Assembly: GCA_026388155.1 (NCBI GenBank)
Contig: JAPLKI010000006.1
Span: 68,401 to 132,400, forward strand
Reading direction: 5' to 3'
DNA: 64,000 bases
DNA from: Elusimicrobiota bacterium
GTDB lineage: Bacteria; Elusimicrobiota; Elusimicrobia; Elusimicrobiales; UBA9959
In this document: piece by piece, positions 13,358 to 57,359 of the stretch
How positions within the stretch are numbered: position 1 is the first letter of the stretch
Layout of the letters: every line of letters begins with the position of its first letter
Translations under genes and position numbers: made by a program
Notes under the pieces: generated by a model
Databases searched by the model: none
The model's input: the letters and a program-made list of their open reading frames with translations, nothing else
What the model was told of the DNA's origin: nothing

Positions 13358-13394
13358 CCCCGCACTTTTTCCGAAATGGGCCAAAGTGCGGGGC
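13358..13394. repeat. Family-B hairpin copy B1 (CCCCGCACTTT–14 nt–AAAGTGCGGGG)
   Basis: perfect 11-bp stem; orphan copy without downstream SD/start. Confidence 0.6.
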
Positions 13395-23116: not shown

Positions 23117-23169
23117 CCCGCACTTTTTCCGAAGAGGGCCAAAGTGCGGGGCAAGGGAGAACACAAAAA
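23117..23169 (+). promoter_or_regulatory. Family-B hairpin copy B2 fused to SD (…AAAGTGCGGGGCAAGGGAG–N12–ATG)
   Basis: cccgcactttttccgaagagggccaaagtgcggggcaagggagaacacaaaaaATG. Confidence 0.5.
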
Positions 23170-42036: not shown

Positions 42037-43581
42037 ATGCTTATCGCTTTCATGCGCAAACTCCGCATAGTCACACTGGTAGCGGCTATCTCTGTCTGCG
42101 TCTATTTTATAGCCCGGGTGATACTATTCTCCTACTCGGATTACACAAGGCTGGAAAAGCTCTTCGGCCTGTTCCTGCTGCTCGGCGAAACCTATATACT
42201 GGTGCACGCCTTCGGCTATATGATGAACGTCTTCACGCTGACCTCCTGGCGAGGCGAGCCCAAACTGGTAAAACCGGAACCCGGCCAGGAACCGTCGGTG
42301 GCCATAGTGGTGGCGGCAAGGCACGAGCCAAAAGAAGTGCTTGAGGGCACTATAATCACCTTCCGCAACGTGGATTACCCGAATAAGACCATCTACTTTC
42401 TGGACGACTCCTCGGAACAGGCATACAAGGAGGAGGCCGACGCTCTGGCGCGCGATCACGGGATAAAAATATTCAGGCGCGAAGCGCGCCACGGCGCCAA
42501 GGCCGGCATAGTCAACGACTTTCTGCGCGGCATGACCGAGAAATATATAGCCATCTTCGACGCGGACCAGAACCCGATGCCTGATTTTCTCAATGAAATA
42601 GTCCCGATACTTGAAGGGGACGAGAAACTGGCCTTCGTTCAGACTCCGCAGTTCTACACGAACATCGGAGAAAGCCCCGTGGCAAAAGGAGCGGCCATGC
42701 AGCAGGCCATCTTCTACGAGACCATCTGCGAAGGAAAGAACGCCACTGGCTCCATGTTCTGCTGCGGCACCAATGTGATTTTCCGCAGGGAAGCGCTGCT
42801 GGACGTGGGAGGTTTCGAGGAGGAATTTATTACCGAGGACTTCGCCACCTCCGTGAATCTGCATATAAAAGGCTGGCGTTCCTGGTACCACAACCATGTG
42901 GTGGCTTTCGGACTGGGCCCCGAGACCCTGCCGGCCTATTTCAAGCAGCAGGCCCGCTGGGCCGGCGGCACCATTAGCGTTTTCCGCAAACTGCTCAGCA
43001 CTCTTTCCAGACACCCTTTCAGCCTTTCCCCCGCCCAGTGGTGGGAATATATGCTCGCCGGCACCTATTATTTCGTCGGGTGGGCATTCTTCTTTCTGAT
43101 GATCTGCCCTATAGCCTACCTGCTTTTCAATGTCCCCTCGTTTTTCCTGTATCCCCAGATATATCTTGCCGCTTACATACCGTATTTCTGCCTGACACTG
43201 CTGATATTCTTCGGGACGATGAAGGAGCGGCATTACAACATCAAGCAGATCTACTACGGTCTTATACTCGGCTCTCTCTGCTTCCCGCTGCTTATGCGGG
43301 CCGCCGTATACGGCCTGCTTGGCAAACGCATGACATTCGTGGTGACAACAAAAGGCAAGGCCGAAATAATGCCGCTATCGGCCCTTTGGCCCTACGGCGT
43401 GATGCTGGGACTCAATATTGCGGCTTTCGCTGTAGGCCTGACGAAGTTCAGCCATAATCCCTACCCGGTGGGCGCAAACATGTTCTGGGTCGCCTATCAC
43501 CTTTTTATACTCTGGAATATTTTCTTTTTCAACCAGCTGCCGGTGCTTGGCAGGGAGGAAAAAGCGAAATGGCGGGCCTGA
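42037..43581 (+). CDS. processive family-2 glycosyltransferase (cellulose/chitin/hyaluronan-synthase-like), membrane-embedded
   Basis: D, DxD (FDADQ), QTPQFY, FCCGTN, ED…TS, QQARWAGG (QxxRW); TM helices at both ends; no PilZ domain. Confidence 0.8.
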   Translation: MLIAFMRKLRIVTLVAAISVCVYFIARVILFSYSDYTRLEKLFGLFLLLGETYILVHAFGYMMNVFTLTSWRGEPKLVKPEPGQEPSVAIVVAARHEPKEVLEGTIITFRNVDYPNKTIYFLDDSSEQAYKEEADALARDHGIKIFRREARHGAKAGIVNDFLRGMTEKYIAIFDADQNPMPDFLNEIVPILEGDEKLAFVQTPQFYTNIGESPVAKGAAMQQAIFYETICEGKNATGSMFCCGTNVIFRREALLDVGGFEEEFITEDFATSVNLHIKGWRSWYHNHVVAFGLGPETLPAYFKQQARWAGGTISVFRKLLSTLSRHPFSLSPAQWWEYMLAGTYYFVGWAFFFLMICPIAYLLFNVPSFFLYPQIYLAAYIPYFCLTLLIFFGTMKERHYNIKQIYYGLILGSLCFPLLMRAAVYGLLGKRMTFVVTTKGKAEIMPLSALWPYGVMLGLNIAAFAVGLTKFSHNPYPVGANMFWVAYHLFILWNIFFFNQLPVLGREEKAKWRA

Positions 43582-43624
43582 CAACAACTTCGGCGTTCGC
43601 GCAAAAGACGACGGTTGAACTGGC

Positions 43625-43681
43625 GCTTTAAACCCCGCACTTTGGCCGTTTCGGAAAAAGTGCGGGGCAAAGGGAGGAGAG
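43625..43681 (+). promoter_or_regulatory. Family-B hairpin copy B4 fused to SD (…AAGTGCGGGGCAAAGGGAGGAGAG-ATG)
   Basis: ccccgcactttggccgtttcggaaaaagtgcggggcaaagggaggagagATG. Confidence 0.5.
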
Positions 43682-43924
43682 ATGGGCGTTGAAAAAGCAG
43701 AATTAATAAAAATGCTGGAGGAGGCCTTCTTTTTGGAAGAGCAGGCCATGCCGATATACAGCCGCCACCTTAAGACCGCCCTGTTCTGGAGAGGTCTCAA
43801 CGCCGCCACGCGGGAGCAATTGCGCATACAGCTGGGCATACTTGAAAAGGAATCCAACCGGCACGCGAAAGTGCTCGGTGAGATGAAAAAGAAAATTGAG
43901 GAGGACAAACGGAATGTTTTCTAA
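43682..43924 (+). CDS. small helical protein, half of a possible split ferritin-like four-helix bundle (E…ExxH)
   Basis: 80 aa; EEAFFLEEQ … EKESNRHAKV. Confidence 0.35.
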   Translation: MGVEKAELIKMLEEAFFLEEQAMPIYSRHLKTALFWRGLNAATREQLRIQLGILEKESNRHAKVLGEMKKKIEEDKRNVF

Positions 43925-44144
43925 AGAAGACTACATCAAGTACTTCCTCCAGATAAGGAAAGTGGAGCTTACCATGCGGGATAAATTCCTTGGCTATTCC
44001 CAAATCGTGGACGACCCGAAATTAAAGAAATTTTTTTTCGGCCTGCACCGGGAAGAGAACGCCCATTACAAGATAGTGACCGGCATGCTTGAAACTTTTG
44101 GTTATAAGGAAACACAGGGCGGGCCGGAAGGAAACCTTAAATGA
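43914..44144 (+). CDS. small helical protein, second half-ferritin-like partner (E…ExxH)
   Basis: 76 aa from MFSKEDY; …HREENAHYKIV; overlaps previous gene. Confidence 0.35.
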   Translation: MFSKEDYIKYFLQIRKVELTMRDKFLGYSQIVDDPKLKKFFFGLHREENAHYKIVTGMLETFGYKETQGGPEGNLK

Positions 44145-44941
44145 AAACCTTCCGCTATTTTGACTGCGGCATATTTAAAGCACTGATCCTGTTTTCATCC
44201 CTGCTTTTTGCCAACGGTCCCGGCTTCGCCTTTTCGCCCACAGGCTACCCCGGAGCAGTATGGATGCTGTCAGGCAGGGACACAAGCGGTATAGACGGGA
44301 CCAACACCCAGGGCATGGTCAGGCAGGGCGTTGAACTGCTGCGCCTCAGCGGCGGGCGGAGCCTGCAGGTTTACGGGCGCTATAACTGGCGGTACAGAAA
44401 TATAAATCAGGATTATTATAACGCTTACACCCCGTATGTCGGGACAATGTTTTCATTCAAGCGCCTGGACCTGGGCGCCGAGTTCGGCTGGCCGCGCTAT
44501 ACCGCGCTCTCCAACAGCAGCAGGGATTATAATATATTCGCCAACTGGTCCCGATACTGGGGACTGAAGGAATGGAGCAGGGACTCACTGATAAAGGCGC
44601 TTCCGTTCTCTACCTGGGGAAACGCGTCCTACGACCTGGGCAACCAGAACGGCTCTTCCACGATGGGCTGGGCAAAACTGGAGGCGGACCTGTTCTGGCT
44701 GCCGCACAACTTTATGGCGGGCCCGTACGCCTCGTATAACTGGCGCCTGCGCACCCGCAACGCGGATTATTTTAACATCAATGAGGTTTGCGCCGGCTTT
44801 GAAATAGGCAACGGCGAGATAGAACTTGGCACGCAATACGCGTGGCGGCGGTATCCGAAGATCAACCAGCGGGATCGCGGCCTTGAACTTTTTATCACCA
44901 TTTATAAGGCCTGGGACCTTAAGCCTAAAAATTCCCGTTAA
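44141..44941 (+). CDS. hypothetical W/Y/N-rich exported protein (possible outer-membrane beta-barrel)
   Basis: N-terminal hydrophobic segment; alternating aromatic pattern; last gene of GT2 operon. Confidence 0.35.
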   Translation: MKTFRYFDCGIFKALILFSSLLFANGPGFAFSPTGYPGAVWMLSGRDTSGIDGTNTQGMVRQGVELLRLSGGRSLQVYGRYNWRYRNINQDYYNAYTPYVGTMFSFKRLDLGAEFGWPRYTALSNSSRDYNIFANWSRYWGLKEWSRDSLIKALPFSTWGNASYDLGNQNGSSTMGWAKLEADLFWLPHNFMAGPYASYNWRLRTRNADYFNINEVCAGFEIGNGEIELGTQYAWRRYPKINQRDRGLELFITIYKAWDLKPKNSR

Positions 44942-44956
44942 GTTAACCTTCCCCGG

Positions 44957-46540
44957 CTATCTGCGGGCGGCCTGTCTGAAATCCTGGGGGGACGGTATGG
45001 CACCGGGCGGAATTCCAGCATACGCCGGCAACGGCGACCACTTCCCGTCTTTCTGCTTGTAAATATACCCAAGCCCCAACCTCATCACGGCGGCATTTTC
45101 ATTTTCCGCCATAAAATCAGTGCCGGGTATTTCCGAGGCGATAGCGGCGGGCTTGCCTGCGTCTTTGGTATAGGGGTTATGCCGCAGGAATTCAGCGACA
45201 AGCCACGACAGTGCCTGAAGACTTGCGGGTTTGGTTATTACCTGCGGCTTTACGGTGTCCGCGTAAAAACTTTTTCCGATCAATTTCACGGCGAACGGTA
45301 AGACGACTATGGACGGAAGCGGGATTTCCCTGACGTCTTTTGCCTGCATTTTGGTGCCCGACAAAGCCGCGCCGTGTTCCGGCACGAATATAACCACCGC
45401 ATTGCGGCCTGATCTTTCCACCTCCAGGAAAAACTCTTCCAGCTGCGCCGTCATCTCGGTAAGCCTCTGTCTGTAGGAGGCAGCGTCGTCCGGCCCCCTG
45501 GAACCGCCGGCCTTATGCGTGCCTATATGAAGATTGGCGGTATTGTAATAAAGCGCGGCCCGCGGCGCCTTGGAATCTTCCCTGGCCTTCCAGAATTTAT
45601 GCAGCGCCGCATTGTCGGCGTAGAGAGGCGTACCGTCGAACATCTGGTATTCCACCGGCAGGCCCGCTATGCCTAGTGGCGCGTCCGCGTGGCCGTATTT
45701 TTGCACACCCGCGGAAAAATCAGCGTACACACCGTCATGGCTGAACATCGTGTATGTCTTAAAGCCAAGTTCCCGCAGGTTGTCCATAAGATAACAGCTG
45801 GCGGGGGCGGCGGCATAAAGCTGCGGGTGCGGCATTTGTCCGCACGAAGATCTTAAAACACGCAGTGCCGCCGGCCCGCTATAGGAGCAGGCCGCGCTGA
45901 AATTGGTGAAAACATAATCAAATTTAGAAAGGAACGGCATCAGGTCGGAGCCTGAATCTTTAATATCCTCCCATGACAGCGAGCAGATGTGCAATATAAG
46001 CACGTCAAAAGGCGGGGAGTTTTTTGCGGGCGGAGAGAATTCCACTACCCTGCCGCTTTCCTTTTTATAGAAAGCCTCAGGCGACTCGCTGCCCAGATCC
46101 GGGATAGTCCGCTTAGGCTGCATGACCCACGCCGCAGTAAGGATACAATAGGCGGACATGGCAAGCAGCACATACTTTTTGCGGGAAGCTAACAGCGTTA
46201 TCGCAAAAAGAACGATCCCGGCCGAGAGCATCCATAAACTTATGGATTGCCGGACAAATTCCATAACATACTGCATTGACGGACGGGTAACGGGATCCGC
46301 CAGAAAGGAAACAAGTTTAGAGACTGGAGGCAGATAAGATTCCCGCCATAGCAGGGCGAGCGCCGCAACCGGAACCGCAACCGCTTTAAGGCCGGTAATA
46401 AGGCGGGGTTTTGAGAAGACCGGAGGGACCGGCAGATGCACGATAACCGCGAGCGCCGCCGTCAGGAATATGTCCAGGATGATATACCCCGAAAAGGAAA
46501 GCGCAGCCGCCGCAAATAAGTACCAGTACCAGAAGATCAT
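44957..46540 (-). CDS. membrane-anchored alkaline-phosphatase-superfamily protein, BcsG-like phosphoethanolamine transferase candidate
   Basis: 4-5 N-terminal TMs then sulfatase-like domain with ICSLSWEDI motif. Confidence 0.5.
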   Translation of the reverse strand: MIFWYWYLFAAAALSFSGYIILDIFLTAALAVIVHLPVPPVFSKPRLITGLKAVAVPVAALALLWRESYLPPVSKLVSFLADPVTRPSMQYVMEFVRQSISLWMLSAGIVLFAITLLASRKKYVLLAMSAYCILTAAWVMQPKRTIPDLGSESPEAFYKKESGRVVEFSPPAKNSPPFDVLILHICSLSWEDIKDSGSDLMPFLSKFDYVFTNFSAACSYSGPAALRVLRSSCGQMPHPQLYAAAPASCYLMDNLRELGFKTYTMFSHDGVYADFSAGVQKYGHADAPLGIAGLPVEYQMFDGTPLYADNAALHKFWKAREDSKAPRAALYYNTANLHIGTHKAGGSRGPDDAASYRQRLTEMTAQLEEFFLEVERSGRNAVVIFVPEHGAALSGTKMQAKDVREIPLPSIVVLPFAVKLIGKSFYADTVKPQVITKPASLQALSWLVAEFLRHNPYTKDAGKPAAIASEIPGTDFMAENENAAVMRLGLGYIYKQKDGKWSPLPAYAGIPPGAIPSPQDFRQAARR

Positions 46541-46653
46541 AATTTACCCGTGAACCACGCACTTTTTCCCAAGAGGCAGGGGAAACCGCTACGGCGGTGC
46601 CCGCCAGTCGCGGACAACGCCATAGGCCCGCGACAGGCCCGAGGCACTGTGGG

Positions 46654-47658
46654 TCAATCCCCGGAAGGGGTCCCGTCAAAGTGCGGGGTAAACAGCCATT
46701 CCAGGCTTTTATCCGAACACTCAAAACGCCCGGCGCCACAGGAACCATAAAATTGAGCGCGCATTTCGTCAGAAGAAAGTGCCCAGTCGCGCTCCTTGTT
46801 GATGTTAAACCAGATAACAGCCTTTACCGCCGGAAATCTTTTCCCGATGGAACCCAGCAGCCGCCCTATCCATAGAACCTTGTCGCCGCCGTTTGAGCAG
46901 GAGGCTGTTTCGGTCAAAAAAACCGGTTTTAAAGGAAACGCCTTTACCGTCCTCTCATAGGCCGCGCCGAACATTTTCCAGGGCTTTACCCATTTCTGCC
47001 AGGTCTTTTGGCCGCCGCCCCAGTTATAGGCGTCTATGCCTATTACATCGGCGCAGTCGTCGCCCGGATAGTAATTTTCAAACCGGTTCCATGCTTCGGC
47101 GGGAACATCTTCCGCGTTAACGGAAAAAACGAATTTAGCGGTTACATTGTTCTGGTTTAAAAATATCTTCCGGACCCGGCGGAACGCTTTTACATAAAGC
47201 TCGGGCGCCGCATTTACGCCCGACCAGCCGTACCAGTCGCTGTTAGGCTCATGCCCGAACCGTATAAACACCGGCCCACCGCCGGCTTGCCTGGCGAAAC
47301 GGGCTATATAAGCGTCGTATTTGCCGCCGGCTATGGCCGGCAAAAGGGTGTCGCGCCTGAGGTCTTGAAGATACGGCTCCCATGTTATCATCGGGACCGC
47401 CCCGGAAGCCCGTATAGCCTTTACCGCCGATGCCGGGAAAGAGGTTTTCCAGTTTATATAAATGTTGCGGATGCCGGCTTTTTCGGCTGAAATAACTCCG
47501 GTCGGCTCGGATACCCCGATAACACAGACCGGATATTGTTTTTCCATTTCGGTTTTCCGGCGAAAAAGCTCAGGACTCTCCTTGCGAAGGATAAAAAAAG
47601 CCGCCGCAGCGGCGATAATAACTGCGGCGACTGCGGCTTTTATCCACTTCATGATCAT
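46654..47658 (-). CDS. glycoside hydrolase family 26-like (beta-mannanase/endoglucanase-type)
   Basis: signal peptide; FGHEPNSDWYGW block typical of GH26 catalytic acid region. Confidence 0.5.
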   Translation of the reverse strand: MIMKWIKAAVAAVIIAAAAAFFILRKESPELFRRKTEMEKQYPVCVIGVSEPTGVISAEKAGIRNIYINWKTSFPASAVKAIRASGAVPMITWEPYLQDLRRDTLLPAIAGGKYDAYIARFARQAGGGPVFIRFGHEPNSDWYGWSGVNAAPELYVKAFRRVRKIFLNQNNVTAKFVFSVNAEDVPAEAWNRFENYYPGDDCADVIGIDAYNWGGGQKTWQKWVKPWKMFGAAYERTVKAFPLKPVFLTETASCSNGGDKVLWIGRLLGSIGKRFPAVKAVIWFNINKERDWALSSDEMRAQFYGSCGAGRFECSDKSLEWLFTPHFDGTPSGD

Positions 47659-47683
47659 TCCTTATAAACCGGCTGCGGCGTGG

Positions 47684-48820
47684 TCAGAGATTTTCCGGGT
47701 AGACAGCCTCAAAAACCGTGCCCCCGGGACCGGAAGAACAGGAAACGCTGCCTTTCAGGTATTTCTCGGTAAGAAGCCTTATGCTGTAGGTGCCAAGGCC
47801 GCGCCCCACCCCTTTGGTGGAGAAGGATTTTTGGAATATCTGCAGCCTTGTGCTCTCGCTCATGGGAGTGGGATTACTCACCGAAAAAGCTATTCCCGCA
47901 GGCGTTTGGCGGCATGAAACTTTTATCTCCGCCCCGGCCCTTTCGGCTTCCACTGCGTTCTTTACCATGTTGCCGATGACCCTTGAGAGAAGAACGCCGT
48001 CGGTTTTCAGAGACAGGTCCTGTGAATCGGGGGTTATCGTGATCTTACGCCCTTTTGCCGCCTCGTGGCCGGAAAAGACGTCCGCTATCTCTTTAATGAG
48101 TTCCAGCGCCCTGACTTCGGCCGCCTGCGGGTTTAGTTCTCCCCTCTCGGCGGCGGCCAGGTCCCTCTGGGACAGGATCTGCTCTACCAGCCGCCTGGCG
48201 GCGTCATGAGCCGTCGGCACATAGGTAATTATCTTCTCAGGACCGAGCATCAGCATAAGCTCCGTAAGCCCGCTTAAGCTTCCCGCGGTGTTAAGAACGT
48301 CATGGAAGAAAATGTGTTCAAGCGCGGTCCTGCGCTTTTCATGGCTTATGTCCACAAAGGAAAATATAATGTGGTCCTGGTTCTCCTGTTTGAACGGCTG
48401 GCTTTTGACCAGCAGGTTGAGGTCGTCGCCTCCGGCTTTAGTGATGATCCTGCACTCTTCCACCGACTCGGTCCCCGCAAGGGCGGCGGCCAATGCTTTG
48501 GCCGCGCCGCATTCACGGCAGAACTTCGTGGTTCCGCAGCCGCCCGGGGTCTCCGCGGAATGTTTACATCCCATTATCTCGCCCGGACGAAACCCGATAA
48601 TCTCTTTTTTTACATCTTTTCCGCTGTTGAAATCGCGGAACGCTTTATTGACAAAAACCGCCTGCCTGTGTCTGTTAAGTATCAGAACAAAACCGATTAT
48701 GGCGTCAAGAAGCTCCGCAAGCAGCGGGATATGATTGATAAATTCCCGCTGGCGCGCGACTTCATCCGCATCGGCTCTCTCCGCGGGCAAAAACTCAGTA
48801 TGCATTTTCGCGTCGGACAT
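47684..48820 (-). CDS. cytoplasmic sensor histidine kinase with Cys-x10-Cys-x6-Cys-x2-Cys cluster
   Basis: H-box FFHDVLN, HATPase_c (N, G1, G2 blocks); GCKHSAETPGGCGTTKFCRECG in N-terminal sensor region; no TM. Confidence 0.75.
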   Translation of the reverse strand: MSDAKMHTEFLPAERADADEVARQREFINHIPLLAELLDAIIGFVLILNRHRQAVFVNKAFRDFNSGKDVKKEIIGFRPGEIMGCKHSAETPGGCGTTKFCRECGAAKALAAALAGTESVEECRIITKAGGDDLNLLVKSQPFKQENQDHIIFSFVDISHEKRRTALEHIFFHDVLNTAGSLSGLTELMLMLGPEKIITYVPTAHDAARRLVEQILSQRDLAAAERGELNPQAAEVRALELIKEIADVFSGHEAAKGRKITITPDSQDLSLKTDGVLLSRVIGNMVKNAVEAERAGAEIKVSCRQTPAGIAFSVSNPTPMSESTRLQIFQKSFSTKGVGRGLGTYSIRLLTEKYLKGSVSCSSGPGGTVFEAVYPENL

Positions 48821-48834
48821 TCAGCCTCCCTTTG

Positions 48835-48870
48835 CCCCGCACTTTGGCCGCTTCGGAAAAAGTGCGGGGG
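48835..48870 (-). promoter_or_regulatory. Family-B hairpin copy B5 fused to SD of histidine kinase gene
   Basis: minus-strand reading: cccccgcactttttccgaagcggccaaagtgcggggcaaagggaggctgaATG. Confidence 0.5.
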
Positions 48871-50610
48871 TTACTTCACTTTCCCGAACCGCCTCAGGGC
48901 GGCGTTAACCCTGGCCACTACGATGTTCTGCTTGAAAGGCTTGGTGATATAGTCGTCGGCCCCGAGCTGCAGGGCAAGTTCCTGGCTTTCGTCGGAGGTT
49001 TCAGTGGTCAGTATTATTATCGGCATATCGGTGATGCCGAGGCCCTGCCTTATGCCTTTTATAAGGTCCAGCCCGTTCATGTGCGGCATGTTGATATCGG
49101 AAATCAGCAGGTCGGGGGATTGCGCCGCTATAGAGGTAAGCGCCTCTTCCCCGTCCACGGCTTCTTTCACTTCATAGCCCTGCGCCTCCAGGGCTTTCCG
49201 CAGCAACAGGCGAATGATCGGTATGTCGTCCACCACCATCACGCTCATCGGCCCGCCCGCAGCCGGGCCCGGGCTCCGGGCCTGCGCGTCGGCCTCGGCC
49301 TCCGTCTGAAGGACAGGCGCAGTGGCTGGGGCAGGGGCGGCCTCAGCCGGTTTTTTGTCCAGGAGCAGGTACGGACTTATCTCGCCAAGCGAAGTAACGC
49401 CTTCTGCAAGATGCCAGAGCGCGTCACGGGTCATAGTCCGGAGGTTACCTGAGTCCAGCGCGATGCGGGTTATTTCCGCACCTTGAGCGCCGGAATTTAT
49501 AACGGTCTTTATGGCGTCAGTGATAAGAAGCAGCTCAACAATGGAGGTGCGGCCGGCATGCCCCTCGTTACCGCATTCTTTGCAGCCCTTTGAAACATAA
49601 TACTTTTCCGGATAGCCATGCTCGCGGAGGGCCGCCAGGATGGCCGGGTCCGACAGGTCCCGCGGAACTTCCGCTTTGCAAGCCGGACAGAGCTTTCTGA
49701 CCAGCCGCTGGGCCGTGATCGCCAGCAACCCGGGGGAGATTTTAAAGCGCTCGACCCCCATATCCACCAGGCGGGAAATAGTGGAAACCGTGTCATTGGT
49801 GTGCAGAGTGGAAAACACCAAGTGCCCCGTCATGGCGGCCTGGAACGCGATATCCGCCGTTTCATGGTCGCGTATTTCGCCCACCATTATGATGTCGGGG
49901 TCCTGCCTTAGCACCGAGCGGAGCACGGCCGCGAAATTAAGCCCCTGCTTCTCGTTGACCTGCACCTGGTTTATGCCTTGAAGCTTATACTCTATGGGGT
50001 CTTCCACGGTGGTTATGTTGGTGCCTTCGCTCCTGCATTTGTTCAGCACCGAGTAAAGCGTGGTCGTCTTGCCTGAGCCGGTAGGTCCCGTGACAAGAAT
50101 TATGCCCTGAGGGGCCTCTATGCATTTTTCAAAGGCCCGCGAAATCTCGGCCGCGAAGCCGAGTTTTTCAAAAGGGACCTCGGCCGCCCGCTGGTCCAGT
50201 ATGCGCATTACCACTTTTTCCCCGTACGAGGTGGGCAGGGTGGAAACCCGCAGGCCCACTTCCACGCCGGATATTTTGAGCTTTGCCCTGCCGTCCTGCG
50301 GCCGCATGTGGTTTGAGATGTCCAGTTCGGCCATTATCTTTATGCGGGCGACCAGCGGCCCGGCCGCTATGTGCTTGGGGATGGACATGATATTTTTCAG
50401 CACGCCGTCTATCCTCACGCGCACGTGGCTGATCTTCTCTTCGTGCTCTATGTGTATGTCGGAGGATTTCTGCCTGTGTGCCTGCGAAATTATGGAGTTG
50501 ACCAGCATTATAACCGGGGTGCCTACCTTGCTGTCTTCTTCCGCGGCGGCTTCCCCCAGCACTTCTATCTCTTCCGGGGCTTCCACTTTAGCCAGCAGTT
50601 CGGCTATCAC
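48871..50610 (-). CDS. GspE/PilB-family secretion ATPase (N2+CTD) fused to C-terminal CheY-like receiver domain; GTG start
   Basis: Walker A LVTGPTGSGKTT, Asp box DPIEY, Walker B, His box GHLVFSTLHTND, CPAC…CKEC zinc motif; C-terminal MSVMVVDDIPIIR…DLLISDINMPHMNGL…TKPF. Confidence 0.85.
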   Translation of the reverse strand: MIAELLAKVEAPEEIEVLGEAAAEEDSKVGTPVIMLVNSIISQAHRQKSSDIHIEHEEKISHVRVRIDGVLKNIMSIPKHIAAGPLVARIKIMAELDISNHMRPQDGRAKLKISGVEVGLRVSTLPTSYGEKVVMRILDQRAAEVPFEKLGFAAEISRAFEKCIEAPQGIILVTGPTGSGKTTTLYSVLNKCRSEGTNITTVEDPIEYKLQGINQVQVNEKQGLNFAAVLRSVLRQDPDIIMVGEIRDHETADIAFQAAMTGHLVFSTLHTNDTVSTISRLVDMGVERFKISPGLLAITAQRLVRKLCPACKAEVPRDLSDPAILAALREHGYPEKYYVSKGCKECGNEGHAGRTSIVELLLITDAIKTVINSGAQGAEITRIALDSGNLRTMTRDALWHLAEGVTSLGEISPYLLLDKKPAEAAPAPATAPVLQTEAEADAQARSPGPAAGGPMSVMVVDDIPIIRLLLRKALEAQGYEVKEAVDGEEALTSIAAQSPDLLISDINMPHMNGLDLIKGIRQGLGITDMPIIILTTETSDESQELALQLGADDYITKPFKQNIVVARVNAALRRFGKVK

Positions 50611-50616
50611 CTTGTC

Positions 50617-51084
50617 CTAGTTAAACAGCTCCTCCATGCAGCTTTCTATATCGCGGGGCAGAGCGTATAGCGGCACGGCGGCGCGGGCGGTCAGCGCCTG
50701 GATGTCGGACAAAGCGTCCAGATTAAGCGGGTCGGCCGTCGCTATCTGTATTTCATCGTCCGAGGCGGCCACGGGCAGGACCAGGTACTTGCGGCAAAGC
50801 CTTTCCGAAAGAATTGTCAGCCCGAACTTATCCACTTTTTCCGGAGTTATTTTGACGCTCTTCACGCGGTAAACGGCCAGTACCGCCTGGGCAAGCTGCT
50901 CCGGAAAAACGGCCTTATCATCAATAAGGGCCTGGGACAGCAAAGGCCGCTGCTCGGAGCGCAGTTTAAGCACCAGGGCCGGGCTGACGACGGGTATTGT
51001 CGCCACGGCTTTCAGCAGCCATTCATCTTTGAAGCGCCATGTTTTTTCCATATTCAAATCTCCCCGCGCTGAAATTATTTTCAA
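50617..51084 (-). CDS. GspE N-terminal (T2SSE_N/MshEN-type) domain protein, separated from ATPase by single in-frame TAG
   Basis: …YLVLPVAASDDEIQIATADPLNLDALSDIQALTARAAVPLYALPRDIESCMEELFN*; same frame as downstream ATPase ORF. Confidence 0.75.
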   Translation of the reverse strand: MKIISARGDLNMEKTWRFKDEWLLKAVATIPVVSPALVLKLRSEQRPLLSQALIDDKAVFPEQLAQAVLAVYRVKSVKITPEKVDKFGLTILSERLCRKYLVLPVAASDDEIQIATADPLNLDALSDIQALTARAAVPLYALPRDIESCMEELFN

Positions 51085-52195: not shown

Positions 52196-53389
52196 TTACG
52201 GCGGCGGAAGCGTGCCGGGCAGTTCCGCCTCGGTGAAAGGTTTTTTAAGATAGTTGCCTATAGACTCGGCAAATCCCCAGTCGTCTTTATACGCCTTGGC
52301 CTCTTTGTAAAATTCAACGGCTTTGGCGCGCTCGCCTTTGAGGTCGTAAACATTGCCAAGGCGCACTATGGACCACACGGCCCACCGCGCCGGATGCACC
52401 GACGGATCGTCTTTAATGGTGGCGGCGGCTTTGGCAAAGTATTCCCCGGCCACAGCGTAATTTTTCTCCGCCAGGTAGGTGGTGCCGATGGCGGTAAGAA
52501 TGCGCGGCAGGTAGCGCTTGCGGTATCTGGGGCGGCCTTCGTTTATCGCCTTCAGATAATCAAGCGATAGTTCGCGCGATTCTTCGTACTTTTTATCCTC
52601 AAAAAGCGAAACTATTTCAATGAACTGCATCTGCGGTATCGCCGGGTAGAGGGTTAACAGTTCGCGCGACCACTTGACAGCCGTTTCAGGATTGGAAAAC
52701 TTGCTGCCGGTCTGCGTATAAATCTCTATAAGCAGCAGCTTCGCGCCCAGCGCGTTGAAATATCCTTTTTCCCTGCACAGATTCAGGTATTCTATGCCTT
52801 TATTGGCGTCGCCGCTTAAAAAAAGTTTGGCCAGCAGCTTTATGACGCCGGGGAGCGTTCCGGCGTAGTATTCATACATCCCAAGCCCCAGGTAGGCGTC
52901 GTAAAGTTCGGGGTCTGTCTTAAGGGCCTTACGGGTATGCGCAAGCGCTTTCTTACCGTCAAAATACGCGGCAAACCAGCGATGCTGCAGCACAGCCAGG
53001 CGGGCCCGCAGGCCGTACATGCCGCCAACGCATAAATGCGCGTTGCCGTCGCCCGGATGTTTTTTAAGCCACTGACGCCCGACCTCTATGGCATGGTCGG
53101 TCATTTCCGAATATTCCTTATCAAGCTTGGGGTCCGATTCGTCTTCAAGGTACTCAAGCGAGGCCCATTTGGTTATGGCCACGCCGAAATGGGGGAACGG
53201 GTTATCCGGAAACTTTTTCAGCGCTTCTTCAAAATTAGCGCGCGCGGTTTCAATGTCCACCTCGTAAATGGCGTCCAACCCTTTTTTTGAAAGCTCCCGC
53301 AGCTCAGGCGCCATGGACTCGGAAACATCCCGGGCGGCAAAAGCGCCTGAACTTAAAAACAGCAGCGGAATAATTGACAGTCTTTTCAT
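52196..53389 (-). CDS. exported TPR-repeat protein
   Basis: signal peptide; multiple TPR-like helix pairs; overlaps serS stop. Confidence 0.55.
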
Positions 53390-54758: not shown

Positions 54759-55283
54759 CTATTTATCCGTTACCGGGAGAACAGACTCTTGCGTTATGCC
54801 GGGGAGTTCCACCCCATAACGGGGATCGACCGTTACTTCCAGCTTCAGGGCGTCAAACCAAAAGCCCGTACCGGCCAGTTTTTTTATCTGTTCGTTCAGT
54901 CCAAAGCGCTCGGCGCGCACCTGCTTTGACTCTCCGGCTCCCGCTTTGGCGAGACGCAGTTCTTCCACGCGGAAAGGCACGTTCCAAACCCCGTTTTCCG
55001 GGCTGTCTCCGTCTTTGATCAGGCGAAGGCGCAGGGCATAGCGCAGTACAATGCCCTCCACCGCGGACGCGGATGAATTGTGCACGGTAAAGATAGCGCG
55101 CAGCTTGTCCGTCAGTTTCTGGTGCGCCGTAAGCTTCAGCCCGGCTACCGGCATGAACGGCGTCCAGGTTTTGGCGCGCGGAGATGAAGACTCCCAGGAT
55201 ACCGCCGTCACCCGCACCTGCGCGGACGCGGCCGCGGAGAATAACAGAAAAAAAATCGCGAAAGGAATTGTTTTTTTTATCAT
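54759..55283 (-). CDS. secreted hypothetical protein
   Basis: signal peptide MIKKTIPFAIFFLLFSAAASAQV. Confidence 0.4.
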   Translation of the reverse strand: MIKKTIPFAIFFLLFSAAASAQVRVTAVSWESSSPRAKTWTPFMPVAGLKLTAHQKLTDKLRAIFTVHNSSASAVEGIVLRYALRLRLIKDGDSPENGVWNVPFRVEELRLAKAGAGESKQVRAERFGLNEQIKKLAGTGFWFDALKLEVTVDPRYGVELPGITQESVLPVTDK

Positions 55284-55879
55284 ATTTTATTATCGCCGAT
55301 GGAGCACTTTTTAAGCTCTTCCTCAAGTTTTTCCGGGATAATGCCTACAACTTCGGCCCGGGTGACAAGCTGGCCGCATTGCAGGCCAAGCATGATCGAA
55401 ATAAGACTGTACTTCGGTCCTTTACCCAGACCGGCCGCAAGCGACTCAAGCAAAAACCGCTGCGAGCCCTTAAGGGACTTCACCCCGGACGGGATAAAGC
55501 TTCGTTCTAAAGCGTTGGAAAGCGAACCCGTAAACGCATTGAGTATGATGTTTCCAAGTTCCGAAAGCAGCAGATCTTCCGCCTGGTTAATATCGACCAG
55601 GCGCGGAAAATCGTAATCGGGGAAACACATTGAGATATGCTTTCTATCCGCGGACCGGAAAATCAGCATGGCGGCAAAAGGGTGGTCTTCGGAAACTTCA
55701 AAATAGACGGCCGTCCCTCCCTCTCCCGCGCGGCGATCAAGCGCTAGTTCGCTTAAAGCGCCGCGTGACACGCTCATATCCGCCAGGCTCCAGCGGCCGG
55801 TGGAGGCTTTTGAGAGGCTGCTCAGGCATTTTTCAAGGCCCGCGGCTGCGATGGTTTCAAGGGCGCTGTCAGGGTTCAT
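55280..55879 (-). CDS. CheC/CheX-family phosphatase-like protein (copy 1)
   Basis: LSELGNIILNAF (ExGN-type motif); 199 aa; 65-70% identical to 56334..56942. Confidence 0.5.
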   Translation of the reverse strand: MNPDSALETIAAAGLEKCLSSLSKASTGRWSLADMSVSRGALSELALDRRAGEGGTAVYFEVSEDHPFAAMLIFRSADRKHISMCFPDYDFPRLVDINQAEDLLLSELGNIILNAFTGSLSNALERSFIPSGVKSLKGSQRFLLESLAAGLGKGPKYSLISIMLGLQCGQLVTRAEVVGIIPEKLEEELKKCSIGDNKI

Positions 55880-55942
55880 GGTAGTGTTTCCGGCTCCGCC
55901 TCAGCCGCGGACTACGCCAGAGGCCCGCGGCAGGCCAGTGTC

Positions 55943-56296
55943 TCAGGCGATGGCTTTCAATAGATCCTTAAACTCTTCAAAAGAGAAAGGTTTGCGCATT
56001 ATGGCGTCAGCTCCCTTGCCGGAAAGCTGCCGGTCTATTTCCTCCTGCTCCACGGCGGTAATAATGACTATTTTGGGCTTCGGGTCGATCTTGCGCAATT
56101 CCTCAAGTATCTCCACCCCGGACTTGCCCGGCAGAATGAGGTCTAAAAACACCACGTCCGGTTTCGACTCCATGAAACAGCTCACCGCTTCCGCGAAATC
56201 CCCGGCTTCGCCGACCACCTTGTGGCCCAGCCTTTTCAGCAGGGATTTAATGGTATAGCGCGTAAGCACATTGTCTTCAACTATCAACACTTTCAT
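55943..56296 (-). CDS. CheY-like single-domain response regulator (copy 1)
   Basis: ED at 8-9, FLDLILPG (Asp52), T, K motifs. Confidence 0.85.
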   Translation of the reverse strand: MKVLIVEDNVLTRYTIKSLLKRLGHKVVGEAGDFAEAVSCFMESKPDVVFLDLILPGKSGVEILEELRKIDPKPKIVIITAVEQEEIDRQLSGKGADAIMRKPFSFEEFKDLLKAIA

Positions 56297-56333
56297 AACA
56301 AGCCCCCCTTGTTAAATGAGTTTTTCGTCACAC

Positions 56334-56942
56334 TTACCGCAAATCCCCTGAAAATTTTCCGCCGGAAGCTTTTTCAAGCTCTTCCTCAAGTTTTTTCGGG
56401 ATAATGCCTATAACTTCGGCCTGGGTGACAAGATGGCCGCATTGCAGGTCGAGCATAATTGAAATAAGGCTGTATTTCTGCTCTTTATCAAGGCCGGCTA
56501 AAAGGGACTCGAGCAAAAATTGCGGCTTGCCCGTCAGGCACTTCGGCTCGGACGGGACAAAGCTTAGTTTTAAAGCGTTGGAAAGCGAGCCCATGAACGC
56601 ATTGAGTATGATGTTTCCAAGTTCCGAAAGCAGCAGTTCATGCGCATGGTCTATATCGGCCATACGGGGGAAAGCGAAACCAAGGAAACACTTTGAGATG
56701 AGCTCTATATCAGCGGACTGAAAAATTATCATGACGGTGAAAGGATGGGCTCCGGAAATTTCAAAATATACGGCCGTCCCGCCCTTTCCCGCGCGGCGCT
56801 CAAGCGCTATTTCGCTTAAAGCGCTGCGGGATACGCTCACATCCGCCAGGCTCCAGCGGCCGGCGGATACTTTTGAGAGCTTTCCCACGCACTTTTCAAG
56901 GCCCGCGACTGCGATGGTTTCAAGGATGCTGTTAGAGTTCAT
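56334..56942 (-). CDS. CheC/CheX-family phosphatase-like protein (copy 2)
   Basis: LSELGNIILNAF motif; paralog of 55280..55879. Confidence 0.5.
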   Translation of the reverse strand: MNSNSILETIAVAGLEKCVGKLSKVSAGRWSLADVSVSRSALSEIALERRAGKGGTAVYFEISGAHPFTVMIIFQSADIELISKCFLGFAFPRMADIDHAHELLLSELGNIILNAFMGSLSNALKLSFVPSEPKCLTGKPQFLLESLLAGLDKEQKYSLISIMLDLQCGHLVTQAEVIGIIPKKLEEELEKASGGKFSGDLR

Positions 56943-57005
56943 GATAGTGTACCCGGCGCCGCCTCAGCCGCGAACTACGCCAGAGGCCCGCGGCAGGCCA
57001 GTGTC

Positions 57006-57359
57006 TCAGGCGATGCTTTTCAGTAATTTTTTAAACTCCGCGTAAGAGAAAGGTTTGTGCATTATAGCGTCGGCTCCCTTTTCGGAAAGCTTCCGGTCTA
57101 TTTCCTCCTGCTCCACTCCGGTGAGAATGACTATTTTAGGCTTCGGGTTGATCTTGCGCAATTCGTCAAATATCTCCACCCCGGATTTGCCCGGCAGGAT
57201 AAGGTCCAAAAACACCACGTCAGGGTTTAACCTGGTGAAGTGCCGCACCGCTTCCGCGGAGTCCCCGGCTTCGCCCACCACCTCGTGGCCCAGCTTGTCC
57301 AGCATGGATCTGATAATATAGCGCGCAAGCTCGTTGTCGTCAACTATCAAGACTTTCAT
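57006..57359 (-). CDS. CheY-like single-domain response regulator (copy 2)
   Basis: ~80% identical to 55943..56296. Confidence 0.85.
   Translation of the reverse strand: MKVLIVDDNELARYIIRSMLDKLGHEVVGEAGDSAEAVRHFTRLNPDVVFLDLILPGKSGVEIFDELRKINPKPKIVILTGVEQEEIDRKLSEKGADAIMHKPFSYAEFKKLLKSIA

What the first reader, a model, noticed from the sequence alone, without database searches (positions are those of the whole stretch)
44957..51084. Operon coupling the secretion ATPase and a histidine kinase to glycan-modifying enzymes, convergent with a GT2 synthase operon
The minus-strand order is GspE_N, GspE-REC, Cys-rich histidine kinase, GH26-like hydrolase, then a BcsG-like membrane phosphoethanolamine transferase (ICSLSWEDI). 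Directly opposite and convergent at 44941/44957 is a plus-strand operon: a processive GT2 synthase with QTPQFY, FCCGTN and QQARW but no PilZ domain, two half-ferritin-like 80-aa proteins, and a W/Y-rich exported protein. Together these look like an uncharacterised exopolysaccharide synthesis/modification/export module under two-component control.
Basis: inference. Interest (0 to 1): 0.65.

Follow-up and report, generated by a model that had tools for sequence, protein, structure and literature searches.

The report
PilZ-less glucan synthase with split-ferritin partners
An uncultured Elusimicrobia bacterium carries a compact six-gene kit for making, phosphoethanolamine-decorating, trimming and exporting a cellulose-like sugar polymer, whose synthase lacks the usual c-di-GMP switch and is always paired with two tiny iron-protein-like subunits; the neighbouring "secretion ATPase" and sensor kinase look like a separate module placed next door.

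Summary
The proposed unit is not supported.

**Exopolysaccharide module.** Comparison with about 25 related loci shows that GH26 and BcsG belong with the convergent operon GT2–sp80–sp82–OMP266. This six-gene module recurs, rearranged, in other Elusimicrobiota.
- Its core is a BcsA-like synthase without PilZ or BcsB, followed by two translationally coupled helical-hairpin proteins of about 65–80 aa.
- The core also occurs in Omnitrophota and Patescibacteria, in every informative locus.
- The two small proteins carry a conserved E / (D/E)xxxH + E / ExxH ligand set and weakly match only diiron ferritin-like proteins.
- OMP266 is predicted to be a 12-strand outer-membrane barrel. It also accompanies canonical BcsA(PilZ)–BcsB–BcsG operons in other Elusimicrobia.
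- The closest solved relative of the GH26 is a lichenase, so the product is a β-glucan: cellulose-like, possibly mixed-linkage.

**ATPase/kinase module.** "GspE_N" and "GspE-REC" are one MshEN–PilB–REC gene cut by an in-frame TAG. That gene and its kinase form a separate Elusimicrobia-wide pair, and it was never found beside the exopolysaccharide module elsewhere.

**Verdict.** This is a new variant of synthase-dependent glucan secretion. The role of the small proteins is inferred, not shown.

The parts
42037..43581 (+). BcsA-like processive GT2 glucan synthase, 514 aa. It has no PilZ domain and no BcsB partner.
   Evidence: Pfam GT2 families, and TIGR03030 CelA at 230 bits (below the cutoff of 699). 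Best PDB hits are BcsA 5ej1/4hg6/7lby, E ~1e-40, covering BcsA residues 85-510 including the gating loop. Motifs: DDS 123-125, DAD 175-177, QTPQFY, FCCGTN, TED 266-268, QQARW, FxVTxK 434-439. Two N-terminal and about four C-terminal hydrophobic segments. No BcsB in the window.
43634..43666 (.). REP-like palindrome (CCCGCACTTT-N13-AAAGTGCGGG) followed by GCAAAGGGAGG and the sp80 start codon.
   Evidence: Five copies in the window against 0 expected by chance.
43682..43924 (+). sp80: an 80-aa cytoplasmic helical hairpin, the first half of a split ferritin-like (diiron-type) four-helix bundle.
   Evidence: No Pfam or PDB hit on its own. AF2 pLDDT 89.9, helices 5-34 and 41-74. The family has 217 representative clusters. 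E19, H29, D/E57 and H61 are conserved in 89-96% of 148 representatives. It sits immediately after the GT2 or GH26 gene in all informative loci.
43914..44144 (+). sp82: 76 aa from ATG 43914, the second half of the split ferritin-like bundle. Its start overlaps the end of sp80 by 11 nt.
   Evidence: Orthologues start at MF(S/T)K.DY. E18, E48 and H51 (E...ExxH) are conserved. A concatenated sp80+sp82 profile hits only diiron proteins: DF1 at E 1.3e-4, bacterioferritin 3e-3, EncB 0.01, rubrerythrin-like 2fzf 0.04, EncFtn 0.06. A natural fusion exists, P0297.
44141..44941 (+). OMP266: a signal-peptide-bearing outer-membrane barrel predicted to have 12 strands. Candidate glucan export pore.
44957..46540 (-). 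BcsG-family membrane phosphoethanolamine transferase, 527 aa.
   Evidence: PF11658 at 410 bits; TIGR03368 at 398.6 bits against a cutoff of 410.2. E. coli BcsG 9b8v_B at E 5e-75. Conserved residues: Zn ligand Cys186, Tyr220-Ser221 nucleophile, disulfide Cys233/Cys249, His338/His342, Glu388-His389, Arg404. N-terminal hydrophobic segments are present.
46654..47658 (-). Membrane-anchored periplasmic GH26 beta-glucanase, lichenase-like. It takes the place of BcsZ.
   Evidence: PF02156. Best PDB hit is the C. thermocellum CelH GH26 lichenase 2bv9, E 1.7e-37; mannanases score only 1e-8 or weaker. Both catalytic Glu are conserved: HE137PNSDWY and LTE250TAS. N-terminal TM segment 1-28. Syntenic with BcsG or GT2 in relatives.
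47684..48820 (-). Cytoplasmic PAS-type histidine kinase with a 4-Cys cluster. Partner of the PilB-REC ATPase, not of the exopolysaccharide module.
   Evidence: HATPase_c plus a weak PAS hit. H-box FFHDVLN 171-177 and Cys85/95/101/104. A 54%-identical orthologue directly follows the PilB-REC orthologue in L026. Absent from the 19 related exopolysaccharide/BcsG loci searched by tblastn.
48836..48868 (.). Second copy of the REP-like palindrome, between the ATPase stop and the kinase start. It is again followed by GCAAAGGGAGG and a start codon.
48871..50610 (-). C-terminal 579 aa of a PilB/GspE-type ATPase with a fused receiver domain.
   Evidence: T2SSE at 435 bits, REC at 108 bits. Walker A 175-183, Walker B, His box, CxxC...CxxC, and REC acceptor D505 are all intact. 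Homologues are ~725-aa MshEN+T2SSE+REC proteins, widespread in Elusimicrobiota.
50617..51051 (-). N-terminal MshEN domain (144 aa) of the same ATPase gene. It ends at an in-frame TAG (50619-50617) that falls in the interdomain linker.
   Evidence: PF05157. In-frame read-through sequence ...EELFN*DKVIAELL. Homologues have S/A/G/P at that position. The same split is present in 4 independent Logan assemblies.

Best explanation
The region holds two modules that happen to abut.

**Module 1 (42037-47658, both strands).** This is a synthase-dependent beta-glucan system.
- A BcsA-like GT2 polymerises UDP-glucose and threads the chain across the inner membrane. It has no PilZ domain and no BcsB.
- sp80 and sp82 are translationally coupled. 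The proposal is that they form a cytoplasmic heterodimeric four-helix bundle with a diiron-type ligand set, and that this bundle is an obligate partner of the synthase. It may be a redox/O2/iron-responsive or purely structural substitute for PilZ and/or BcsB.
- In the periplasm, BcsG transfers phosphoethanolamine from phosphatidylethanolamine onto the glucan.
- The membrane-anchored, lichenase-like GH26 trims or releases chains, which is the BcsZ role.
- The 12-strand barrel OMP266 conducts the polymer through the outer membrane.

**Module 2 (47684-51051).** This is an Elusimicrobia-wide MshEN-PilB-REC ATPase with its cognate PAS histidine kinase. In this lineage the ATPase is split at the interdomain linker by a TAG codon. 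It is presumably a phosphorelay-controlled type IV pilus / type II secretion motor.

**Shown versus inferred.**
- Shown: homologies, catalytic residues, predicted folds and synteny.
- Inferred: product identity, complex formation, metal binding, and any regulation.
For: **Synteny**
- GT2, sp80, sp82, OMP266, BcsG and GH26 co-occur in L005, L006 and L007, with the order rearranged in L005, and all six again in L019 (L018 is the same region but the contig ends before OMP266).
- GT2-(GH26)-sp80-sp82-(OMP) occurs in L017 and L020-L023.
- BcsG-GT2-sp85-sp62-GalU occurs in a Falkowbacteria genome.
- GT2-sp79-sp63 and GH26-sp79-sp64 occur in Omnitrophota. GT2-GH26-sp73-sp67-ferredoxin, GT2-sp80-sp63-NTP_transferase-hemerythrin, and REC-HK-REC-GT2-sp102-NTP_transferase occur in other contigs.
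- None of these GT2s has a PilZ hit on record.
- sp80/sp82 were not detected by tblastn in the canonical BcsA(PilZ)-BcsB-BcsG-OMP loci L009-L011.

**Small proteins**
- The sp80 stop and the sp82 start overlap by 11 nt, here and in relatives.
- A fused form exists, P0297.
- Putative ligand residues are the best-conserved positions.
- All top profile hits are diiron ferritin-like proteins.

**Enzymes and pore**
- Enzyme homologies and active-site residues.
- Barrel model.

**Module 2**
- Architecture and the in-frame TAG.
- The ATPase-kinase pair is conserved in L026.
- No ATPase, HK378 or MshEN homologue was found beside any related exopolysaccharide locus.
Against: - No experiment supports any step.
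- The natural ferritin-like hits are statistically marginal (E 3e-3 to 0.2). The sp80 half has E-x3-H rather than ExxH. One Omnitrophota pair (L039a) lacks the ligands.
- A 12-strand barrel is narrower than the 16-strand BcsC and PgaA pores.
- BcsG is missing within the flanks of about half the GT2-sp80-sp82 loci, so phosphoethanolamine modification is optional.
- The lichenase affinity of GH26 leaves cellulose versus mixed-linkage glucan open.
- HK378 is only 25 nt upstream of GH26. REC and HK genes recur near the core in other phyla. Regulatory coupling to the kinase therefore cannot be excluded.
Confidence: 0.72

Rival explanations
1. First reader's model. A single minus-strand operon places the glycan-modifying enzymes (GH26, BcsG) under a two-component system, and the GspE-type ATPase contributes to export of the polymer made by the convergent GT2 operon.
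For: - The genes share a strand with short gaps: 25 nt from the kinase to GH26, and 50 nt from the ATPase to the kinase.
- The kinase-GH26 adjacency is reproduced in independent assemblies.
- REC and HK genes lie inside or beside GT2-sp80-sp82 clusters in Omnitrophota and in L041.
- In one relative, the ATPase lies about 16 kb from the GT2 cluster on the same contig (L021/L024).
Against: - The ATPase, MshEN and HK378 were not detected by tblastn in any of the 19 related exopolysaccharide/BcsG loci.
- ATPase orthologues sit in unrelated neighbourhoods.
- The ATPase gene is interrupted by a stop codon.
- From established knowledge of BcsA, synthase-dependent glucan export is driven by polymerisation and needs no secretion ATPase.
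- The same-strand run continues through housekeeping genes: Zincin_1, EamA, TPR and SerRS.
Confidence: 0.12
2. The module makes a mixed-linkage (1,3;1,4)-beta-glucan or another non-cellulosic beta-glucan. BcsG decorates that polymer rather than cellulose.
For: - The nearest solved relative of the GH26 is the lichenase CtLic26A, at E 1.7e-37, far better than any mannanase.
- BcsA-like GT2s are known to make mixed-linkage glucan. RiGT2 does so, and S. meliloti BgsA has been proposed to (PMC10374906).
- The synthase scores far below the CelA equivalog cutoff.
Against: - BcsG and OMP266 homologues also serve canonical BcsA(PilZ)-BcsB operons in other Elusimicrobia.
- The best synthase hits are BcsA.
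- Linkage type cannot be read from the sequence (PMC10374906).
Confidence: 0.3
3. sp80/sp82 are generic small iron-storage or oxidative-stress proteins (half-ferritins), or plain structural helices. They ride along with the synthase gene and have no specific role in it.
For: - They show ferritin-like similarity, and two JGI records annotate family members as 'rubrerythrin'.
- One divergent pair lacks the ligand residues.
- A hemerythrin gene and a ferredoxin gene lie nearby in two loci.
Against: - They are adjacent to a PilZ-less GT2 or to its GH26 in every informative locus across three phyla, despite rearrangement of the other genes.
- They are translationally coupled.
- They were not detected in the canonical BcsAB loci.
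Confidence: 0.12

Closest known systems
E. coli / Salmonella type II Bcs system (BcsRQABZC + BcsEFG, phosphoethanolamine cellulose)
   Same: - A BcsA-type processive GT2 with all catalytic motifs and the gating loop.
- BcsG with the full active-site residue set.
- A periplasmic endoglucanase and an outer-membrane barrel.
- Synthase-dependent logic.
   Different: - No PilZ, BcsB, BcsC (TPR + 16-strand barrel), BcsE, BcsF, BcsQ or BcsR.
- The hydrolase is GH26 rather than GH8.
- The pore is a 266-aa, 12-strand barrel.
- Two split-ferritin-like small proteins are added.
- The host is Elusimicrobiota, not Proteobacteria.
PilZ-less or c-di-GMP-independent BcsA-like synthases: S. meliloti BgsA, R. 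ilealis RiGT2, clostridial CcsA, plant CesA
   Same: - A BcsA-like core working without BcsB.
- The product may be cellulose or mixed-linkage glucan.
- Regulation does not run through the canonical PilZ/c-di-GMP route.
   Different: - BgsA has its own C-terminal c-di-GMP-binding region and an HlyD-like partner.
- RiGT2 retains a PilZ fold that it needs for activity (PMC10374906).
- None of these is reported with half-ferritin partners, BcsG or a GH26.
Half-ferritins / encapsulated ferritins (EncFtn, M. xanthus EncB/EncC) and designed 'due ferri' DF1 helix-loop-helix diiron proteins
   Same: - Helix-loop-helix units of about 60-100 aa with an E...ExxH motif, which build a diiron site only on dimerisation.
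- The profile aligns in register with these proteins.
   Different: - Here there are two different hairpins, forming a heterodimer.
- sp80 has E-x3-H plus an extra conserved His29 and an LFWxGL turn.
- There is no encapsulin context.
- The pair is genomically tied to a glucan synthase.
PilB/MshE/GspE type IV pilus and type II secretion ATPases
   Same: MshEN N-domain, Walker A and B, Asp and His boxes, and a tetracysteine Zn motif.
   Different: - A C-terminal receiver domain is fused on, an architecture common in Elusimicrobiota.
- This copy is split by a TAG codon.
- The first MshEN motif lacks the RLG arginine and glycine (read by eye).
- No PilC or PilM was found next to it among the genes scanned.

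Membership tests
BcsG (cellulose phosphoethanolamine transferase, PF11658 / TIGR03368) | Family HMM match over the catalytic domain. | tested here: met
   PF11658 at 410 bits (cutoff 24.8). TIGR03368 at 398.6 bits, just under the equivalog cutoff of 410.2.
BcsG | Active-site set, in E. coli numbering: Cys243, Tyr277-Ser278, Cys290/Cys306 disulfide, His396, Glu442-His443, Arg458. | tested here: met
   All align and are conserved: C186, Y220-S221, C233/C249, H338/H342, E388-H389, R404 (residue roles from PMC8892547).
BcsG | Works with BcsA through BcsF/BcsE in a type II Bcs operon. | tested here: not met
   No BcsE, BcsF or BcsB among the cluster genes scanned. tblastn with the Elusimicrobia BcsB from L009 finds nothing in the window.
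BcsG | Transfers phosphoethanolamine from phosphatidylethanolamine to glucan. | not testable with these tools
   This needs biochemistry or solid-state NMR of the polymer.
BcsA cellulose synthase (TIGR03030) | GT2 motifs D, DxD, TED and Q(Q/R)xRW, plus the FFCGS-like motif and the FxVTxK gating loop. | tested here: met
BcsA cellulose synthase (TIGR03030) | C-terminal PilZ domain that binds c-di-GMP. | tested here: not met
   No PF07238 hit. The protein ends 16 residues after the last TM segment. A control, the BcsA of L009, does show PilZ.
BcsA cellulose synthase (TIGR03030) | Co-catalytic BcsB partner. | tested here: not met
   No BcsB in the window or in the GT2-sp80-sp82 loci.
BcsA cellulose synthase (TIGR03030) | Equivalog score cutoff. 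| tested here: not met
   230 bits against a cutoff of 699.
GH26 glycoside hydrolase | Family HMM match and the two catalytic glutamates on the (beta/alpha)8 fold. | tested here: met
   PF02156 at 37 bits (cutoff 20.2). E137 and E250 align with the acid/base and nucleophile of CtLic26A.
GH26 glycoside hydrolase | Substrate specificity: lichenase versus mannanase versus cellulase. | not testable with these tools
   Only relative similarity is available: lichenase at E 1.7e-37 against mannanases at 1e-8 or weaker.
Ferritin-like diiron four-helix bundle (half-ferritin type) | Helix-loop-helix with Glu on helix 1 and ExxH on helix 2. | tested here: inconclusive
   sp82 has E18...E48-x2-H51. sp80 has E19...D/E57-x3-H61. 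The hairpin fold is predicted for sp80.
Ferritin-like diiron four-helix bundle (half-ferritin type) | Significant sequence or structure match to family members. | tested here: inconclusive
   No Pfam hit. Profile against PDB: DF1 at 1.3e-4, bacterioferritin 3e-3, EncB 0.01. Foldseek returns only generic hairpins.
Ferritin-like diiron four-helix bundle (half-ferritin type) | Binds two iron ions at a dimer interface. | not testable with these tools
   This needs purified protein. A complex model was not made with the tools offered.
BcsC / PgaA-type exopolysaccharide outer-membrane porin | 16-strand barrel preceded by periplasmic TPR repeats. | tested here: not met
PilB/GspE secretion ATPase | Intact MshEN/N1-ATPase polypeptide with Walker A and B, a His box and a Zn motif. 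| tested here: not met
   The motifs are intact, but the ORF is broken by an in-frame TAG between the MshEN domain and the ATPase.

The most novel reading that the evidence does not exclude
GT2 + sp80 + sp82 defines a new class of bacterial beta-glucan (cellulose-like) synthase found in Elusimicrobiota, Omnitrophota and Patescibacteria. In this class, a heterodimeric split diiron (rubrerythrin/half-ferritin-like) protein replaces the PilZ/c-di-GMP switch, and possibly BcsB. It would couple polymer synthesis to O2, peroxide, redox state or iron. In some lineages the polymer is phosphoethanolamine-modified by BcsG, which would place phosphoethanolamine cellulose well outside the Proteobacteria.
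Probability: 0.3. Interest if true: 0.8.

Novelty: new variant of a known kind. Interest (0 to 1): 0.6.

Why it matters
- Bacterial cellulose synthases are textbook c-di-GMP-gated BcsA-BcsB machines, and phosphoethanolamine cellulose is described for Enterobacteriaceae. This module would show a minimal alternative build: no PilZ, no BcsB, no BcsC, and none of BcsE, F, Q or R.
- It would extend BcsG-type modification to deep-branching, mostly anaerobic and uncultured phyla.
- It would assign a genomic context, and a testable role, to an unannotated small-protein family of at least 217 clusters at 50% identity.
- If the split diiron pair gates the synthase, that would be a new input (O2, redox or iron) into matrix production.
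- It would also offer a compact, c-di-GMP-independent cassette for engineering modified cellulose.

Tried and rejected
- **sp80, sp82 and OMP266 against Pfam, NCBIfam and PDB by sequence:** no hits.
- **sp80 versus sp82 by hhalign:** not detectably homologous (probability 1.8%). They are therefore treated as two distinct hairpins, not paralogues.
- **Foldseek of the sp80 model:** only generic helical hairpins such as EsxB and designed dimers. Uninformative.
- **Assembly or strain-variation artefact at the module junctions.** I considered this because the Logan contigs break there. The breaks coincide with copies of a repeated palindrome, and the kinase-GH26 adjacency is seen on single contigs. 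Rejected.
- **The TAG as a sequencing error:** rejected, because it is present in four independent assemblies.
- **TPR397 (52196-53389) as a BcsC/BcsK-like TPR partner:** no homologue in the related loci searched.
- **Literature searches** for BcsG or cellulose synthase in Elusimicrobia, and for BcsA with GH26, found nothing relevant. The cellulose synthase / Omnitrophota / Patescibacteria search was run with min_terms 2 and none of its 15 listed papers contained 'cellulose synthase', so it is uninformative.

Full report
**1. What is in the sequence**

The minus strand carries, in order of transcription:
- an MshEN-domain ORF, 51084/51051–50617
- a T2SSE + REC ORF, 50610–48871
- a PAS/HATPase_c kinase, 48820–47684
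- a GH26 protein, 47658–46654
- a BcsG protein, 46540–44957

The plus strand carries:
- a GT2, 42037–43581
- two ~80-aa ORFs
- a 266-aa ORF ending at 44941, which is 15 nt from the BcsG stop

Genes upstream on the plus strand are housekeeping: succinyl-CoA synthetase, CorA and MiaB. Beyond the MshEN ORF, the minus-strand run continues through Zincin_1, EamA, a TPR protein and SerRS.

The source is an Elusimicrobiota MAG. The identical proteins are NCBI 'MAG: Elusimicrobia bacterium' entries, and the closest genomic relatives are Elusimicrobia MAGs.

**2. The enzymes**

*GT2.*
- Its best matches are BcsA structures, at E ~1e-40. The match covers BcsA residues 85–510.
- It has the D, DxD, TED and QQARW motifs, the FCCGTN motif and the FxVTxK gating loop.
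- It has no PilZ hit and ends just after its last membrane segment.
- No BcsB is encoded in the window.

*BcsG.*
- It scores 410 bits on PF11658 and E 5e-75 against E. coli BcsG.
- It keeps every residue reported as catalytic or structural.
- It falls 12 bits short of the NCBIfam equivalog cutoff.

*GH26.*
- It is far closer to the C. thermocellum lichenase CtLic26A (E 1.7e-37) than to any mannanase.
- Both catalytic glutamates are conserved, and it has an N-terminal membrane anchor.

**3. Synteny separates two modules**

I ran a genome scan with BcsG and a metagenome scan with an sp80 alignment, then searched the window proteins against the loci with tblastn. The results:
- GT2, sp80, sp82, OMP266, BcsG and GH26 co-occur in L005–L007 and in L019 (L018 is the same region but ends before OMP266). 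Gene order and orientation differ between loci.
- GT2–GH26–sp80–sp82(–OMP) occurs in L017 and L021–L023 with no BcsG inside the flanks; the short contig L020 holds only the end of GT2, sp80 and sp82.
- No ATPase, MshEN or HK378 homologue appears in any of these loci.

The ATPase has more than 100 orthologue clusters in Elusimicrobiota. Almost all are single ~725-aa MshEN+T2SSE+REC proteins. Three orthologues examined in context sit next to other two-component genes:
- In L026 a 54%-identical HK378 orthologue follows the ATPase directly.
- In L024 an Hpt protein and hybrid kinases lie alongside.
- In L027 a CheB/CheR-kinase lies alongside.

I conclude that GH26 and BcsG belong to the convergent exopolysaccharide operon, and that the ATPase and kinase form their own pair.

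**4. The ATPase is one interrupted gene**
- The MshEN ORF and the ATPase ORF are in the same frame, separated only by TAG (...EELFN*DKVIAELL).
- Orthologues have Ser, Ala, Gly or Pro at that position, and it lies in the interdomain linker.
- The same split is called in four independent Logan assemblies. It is therefore real in this population and not a one-off error.
- All ATPase and receiver motifs remain intact. A functional two-piece protein is possible, with re-initiation at the GTG 6 nt downstream. Recent inactivation is equally possible.

**5. The two small proteins**
- Neither has a Pfam or PDB sequence hit on its own.
- The sp80 model is a confident helical hairpin.
- An exhaustive profile search finds 217 representative clusters. 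Nearly all are stand-alone proteins of 72–84 aa. One is a 149-aa sp80–sp82 fusion.

Contexts were recovered for five further family members:
- Two Omnitrophota contigs (L039 and L045, the same arrangement): TPR–GT2–sp79–sp63–REC–HK–REC–GH26–sp79–sp64.
- L041: REC–HK–REC–GT2–sp102–NTP_transferase.
- L043: TPR–GT2–GH26–sp73–sp67–ferredoxin.
- L044: GT2–sp80–sp63–NTP_transferase–hemerythrin.
- The Falkowbacteria locus L012 reads BcsG–GT2–sp85–sp62–GalU.

Three patterns follow from these contexts:
- In every informative locus, the pair directly follows a PilZ-less BcsA-like GT2 or its GH26.
- The pair was not detected by tblastn in the canonical Elusimicrobia operons BcsA(PilZ)–unk319–BcsB–BcsG–OMP.
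- The sp80 stop overlaps the sp82 start by 11 nt, here and in relatives. This suggests equimolar production.

The most conserved positions in sp80, counted across 148 representatives, are:

| Position | Conservation |
|---|---|
| E19 | 95% |
| H29 | 90% |
| D/E57 | 89% |
| H61 | 96% |

In sp82 the most conserved positions are E18, E48 and H51.

A concatenated profile hits only diiron ferritin-like proteins:

| Hit | E-value |
|---|---|
| Designed DF1 'due ferri' | 1.3e-4 |
| Bacterioferritin | 3e-3 |
| EncB | 0.01 |
| Rubrerythrin-like 2fzf | 0.04 |
| EncFtn | 0.06 |
| Symerythrin | 0.2 |

However, the evidence is marginal for natural proteins, sp80 has E-x3-H rather than ExxH, and one Omnitrophota copy has lost the ligands.

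**6. The exported protein**
- The AF2 model is confident (pLDDT 87.9). It shows a signal peptide followed by a 12-strand barrel.
- The protein is an internal duplication, with the YNWRxRxxNxDY(Y/F)N motif present twice.
- Homologues sit beside BcsG or GT2 in both the PilZ-less and the canonical Elusimicrobia operons.
- This fits a role as the outer-membrane conduit in place of BcsC. That role is an inference.

**7. Mechanism proposed**

Steps that follow from homology:
- The GT2 polymerises UDP-glucose and translocates the chain.
- BcsG adds phosphoethanolamine in the periplasm.
- GH26 trims the chain.

Steps that are inferred:
- OMP266 exports the polymer.
- sp80/sp82 form a heterodimeric four-helix bundle that is an obligate partner of the PilZ-less, BcsB-less synthase.
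- The bundle may sense O2, redox state or iron. Ferredoxin and hemerythrin neighbours give weak support.

The product may be cellulose or a mixed-linkage glucan. BcsA-like enzymes can make either (PMC10374906), and the GH26 is lichenase-like.

**8. Comparison with known systems, and novelty**
- Known Bcs operon types rely on BcsA(PilZ)–BcsB, with BcsC or BcsK and a GH8 BcsZ. BcsEFG marks the enterobacterial type II system (PMC8892547, PMC11379886).
- I found no paper linking BcsG or cellulose synthase with Elusimicrobia, or BcsA with GH26. The Omnitrophota/Patescibacteria search listed no paper containing 'cellulose synthase' and was uninformative.
- The system is a new variant of synthase-dependent glucan secretion, with a previously unannotated pair of accessory proteins.
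- The headline claim of the finding, coupling to a secretion ATPase and kinase, is not supported by comparative evidence.

Noticed in passing
window 13359-13392, 23117-23150, 28741-28773, 43634-43666, 48836-48868: A REP-like palindrome, CCCGCACTTT-N13/14-AAAGTGCGGG, occurs in 5 copies against 0 expected by chance. Three copies are followed by GCAA(A)GGGAG(G) and then a start codon within 4-12 nt (the ORF at 23170, sp80 and HK378). The element may therefore supply or carry a ribosome-binding site. k-mer assemblies break at these sites.
   Followed up: partly
window 50617-50619 (minus strand): An in-frame TAG splits an otherwise intact MshEN-PilB-REC gene at its interdomain linker. It is fixed in four independent assemblies. 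It could be a functional split with re-initiation at GTG 50610, or a young pseudogene.
   Followed up: yes
window 48871-51051; proteins P0018-P0136: The MshEN + T2SSE + C-terminal receiver domain architecture (~725 aa) is very common in Elusimicrobiota: more than 100 clusters at 53-70% identity. It looks like a phosphorelay-controlled PilB-type motor. By eye, the first MshEN motif lacks the RLG arginine and glycine, so c-di-GMP binding is doubtful.
   Followed up: partly
L009 4188-12402; also L010 and L011: Other Elusimicrobia carry a canonical BcsA(PilZ)-unknown319-BcsB-BcsG-OMP289 operon. In L009 it is flanked upstream by a GH10 and an adenylate/guanylate cyclase, and downstream by a GAF/HD-GYP protein. 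BcsG-type modification with classical cellulose synthases therefore exists outside the Proteobacteria, using the small barrel instead of BcsC.
   Followed up: partly
L019 10585-20028: An expanded cluster reads GT2-sp80-sp82-GDPD-BcsG-Metallophos-GH26-Metallophos-PAP2-OMP, with PilM and a secretin just upstream. The extra phosphoesterases suggest more elaborate phospho-decoration or recycling of the polymer.
   Followed up: no
L039 714-8424 (Omnitrophota): Two sp80/sp82 pairs lie in one cluster. The pair directly after the GT2 has lost the putative metal ligands, while the pair after GH26 keeps them. REC-hybrid HK-REC sits between the two pairs.
   Followed up: partly
P0297 (149 aa, ENA contig): A natural fusion of sp80-like and sp82-like halves, supporting the idea that the two proteins act as one four-helix unit. 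Its second half lacks the His.
   Followed up: partly
window 47684-48820, residues 84-105 of HK378: A Cys cluster, C-x9-C-x5-C-x2-C, lies inside the PAS-like region of the kinase. It could be a Zn or Fe-S site. Its nature is not established.
   Followed up: no
window 54759-57359 (minus strand): Two stand-alone receiver-domain genes (55943-56296 and 57006-57359) are interleaved with three ORFs of 174, 199 and 202 aa that have no Pfam hits. They lie between SerRS and MetK.
   Followed up: no
P0221 (530 aa): A repetitive protein, probably eukaryotic, matched the sp80 profile through eight copies of 'EERACLVYCRHL'. This is most likely a spurious low-complexity match.
   Followed up: no
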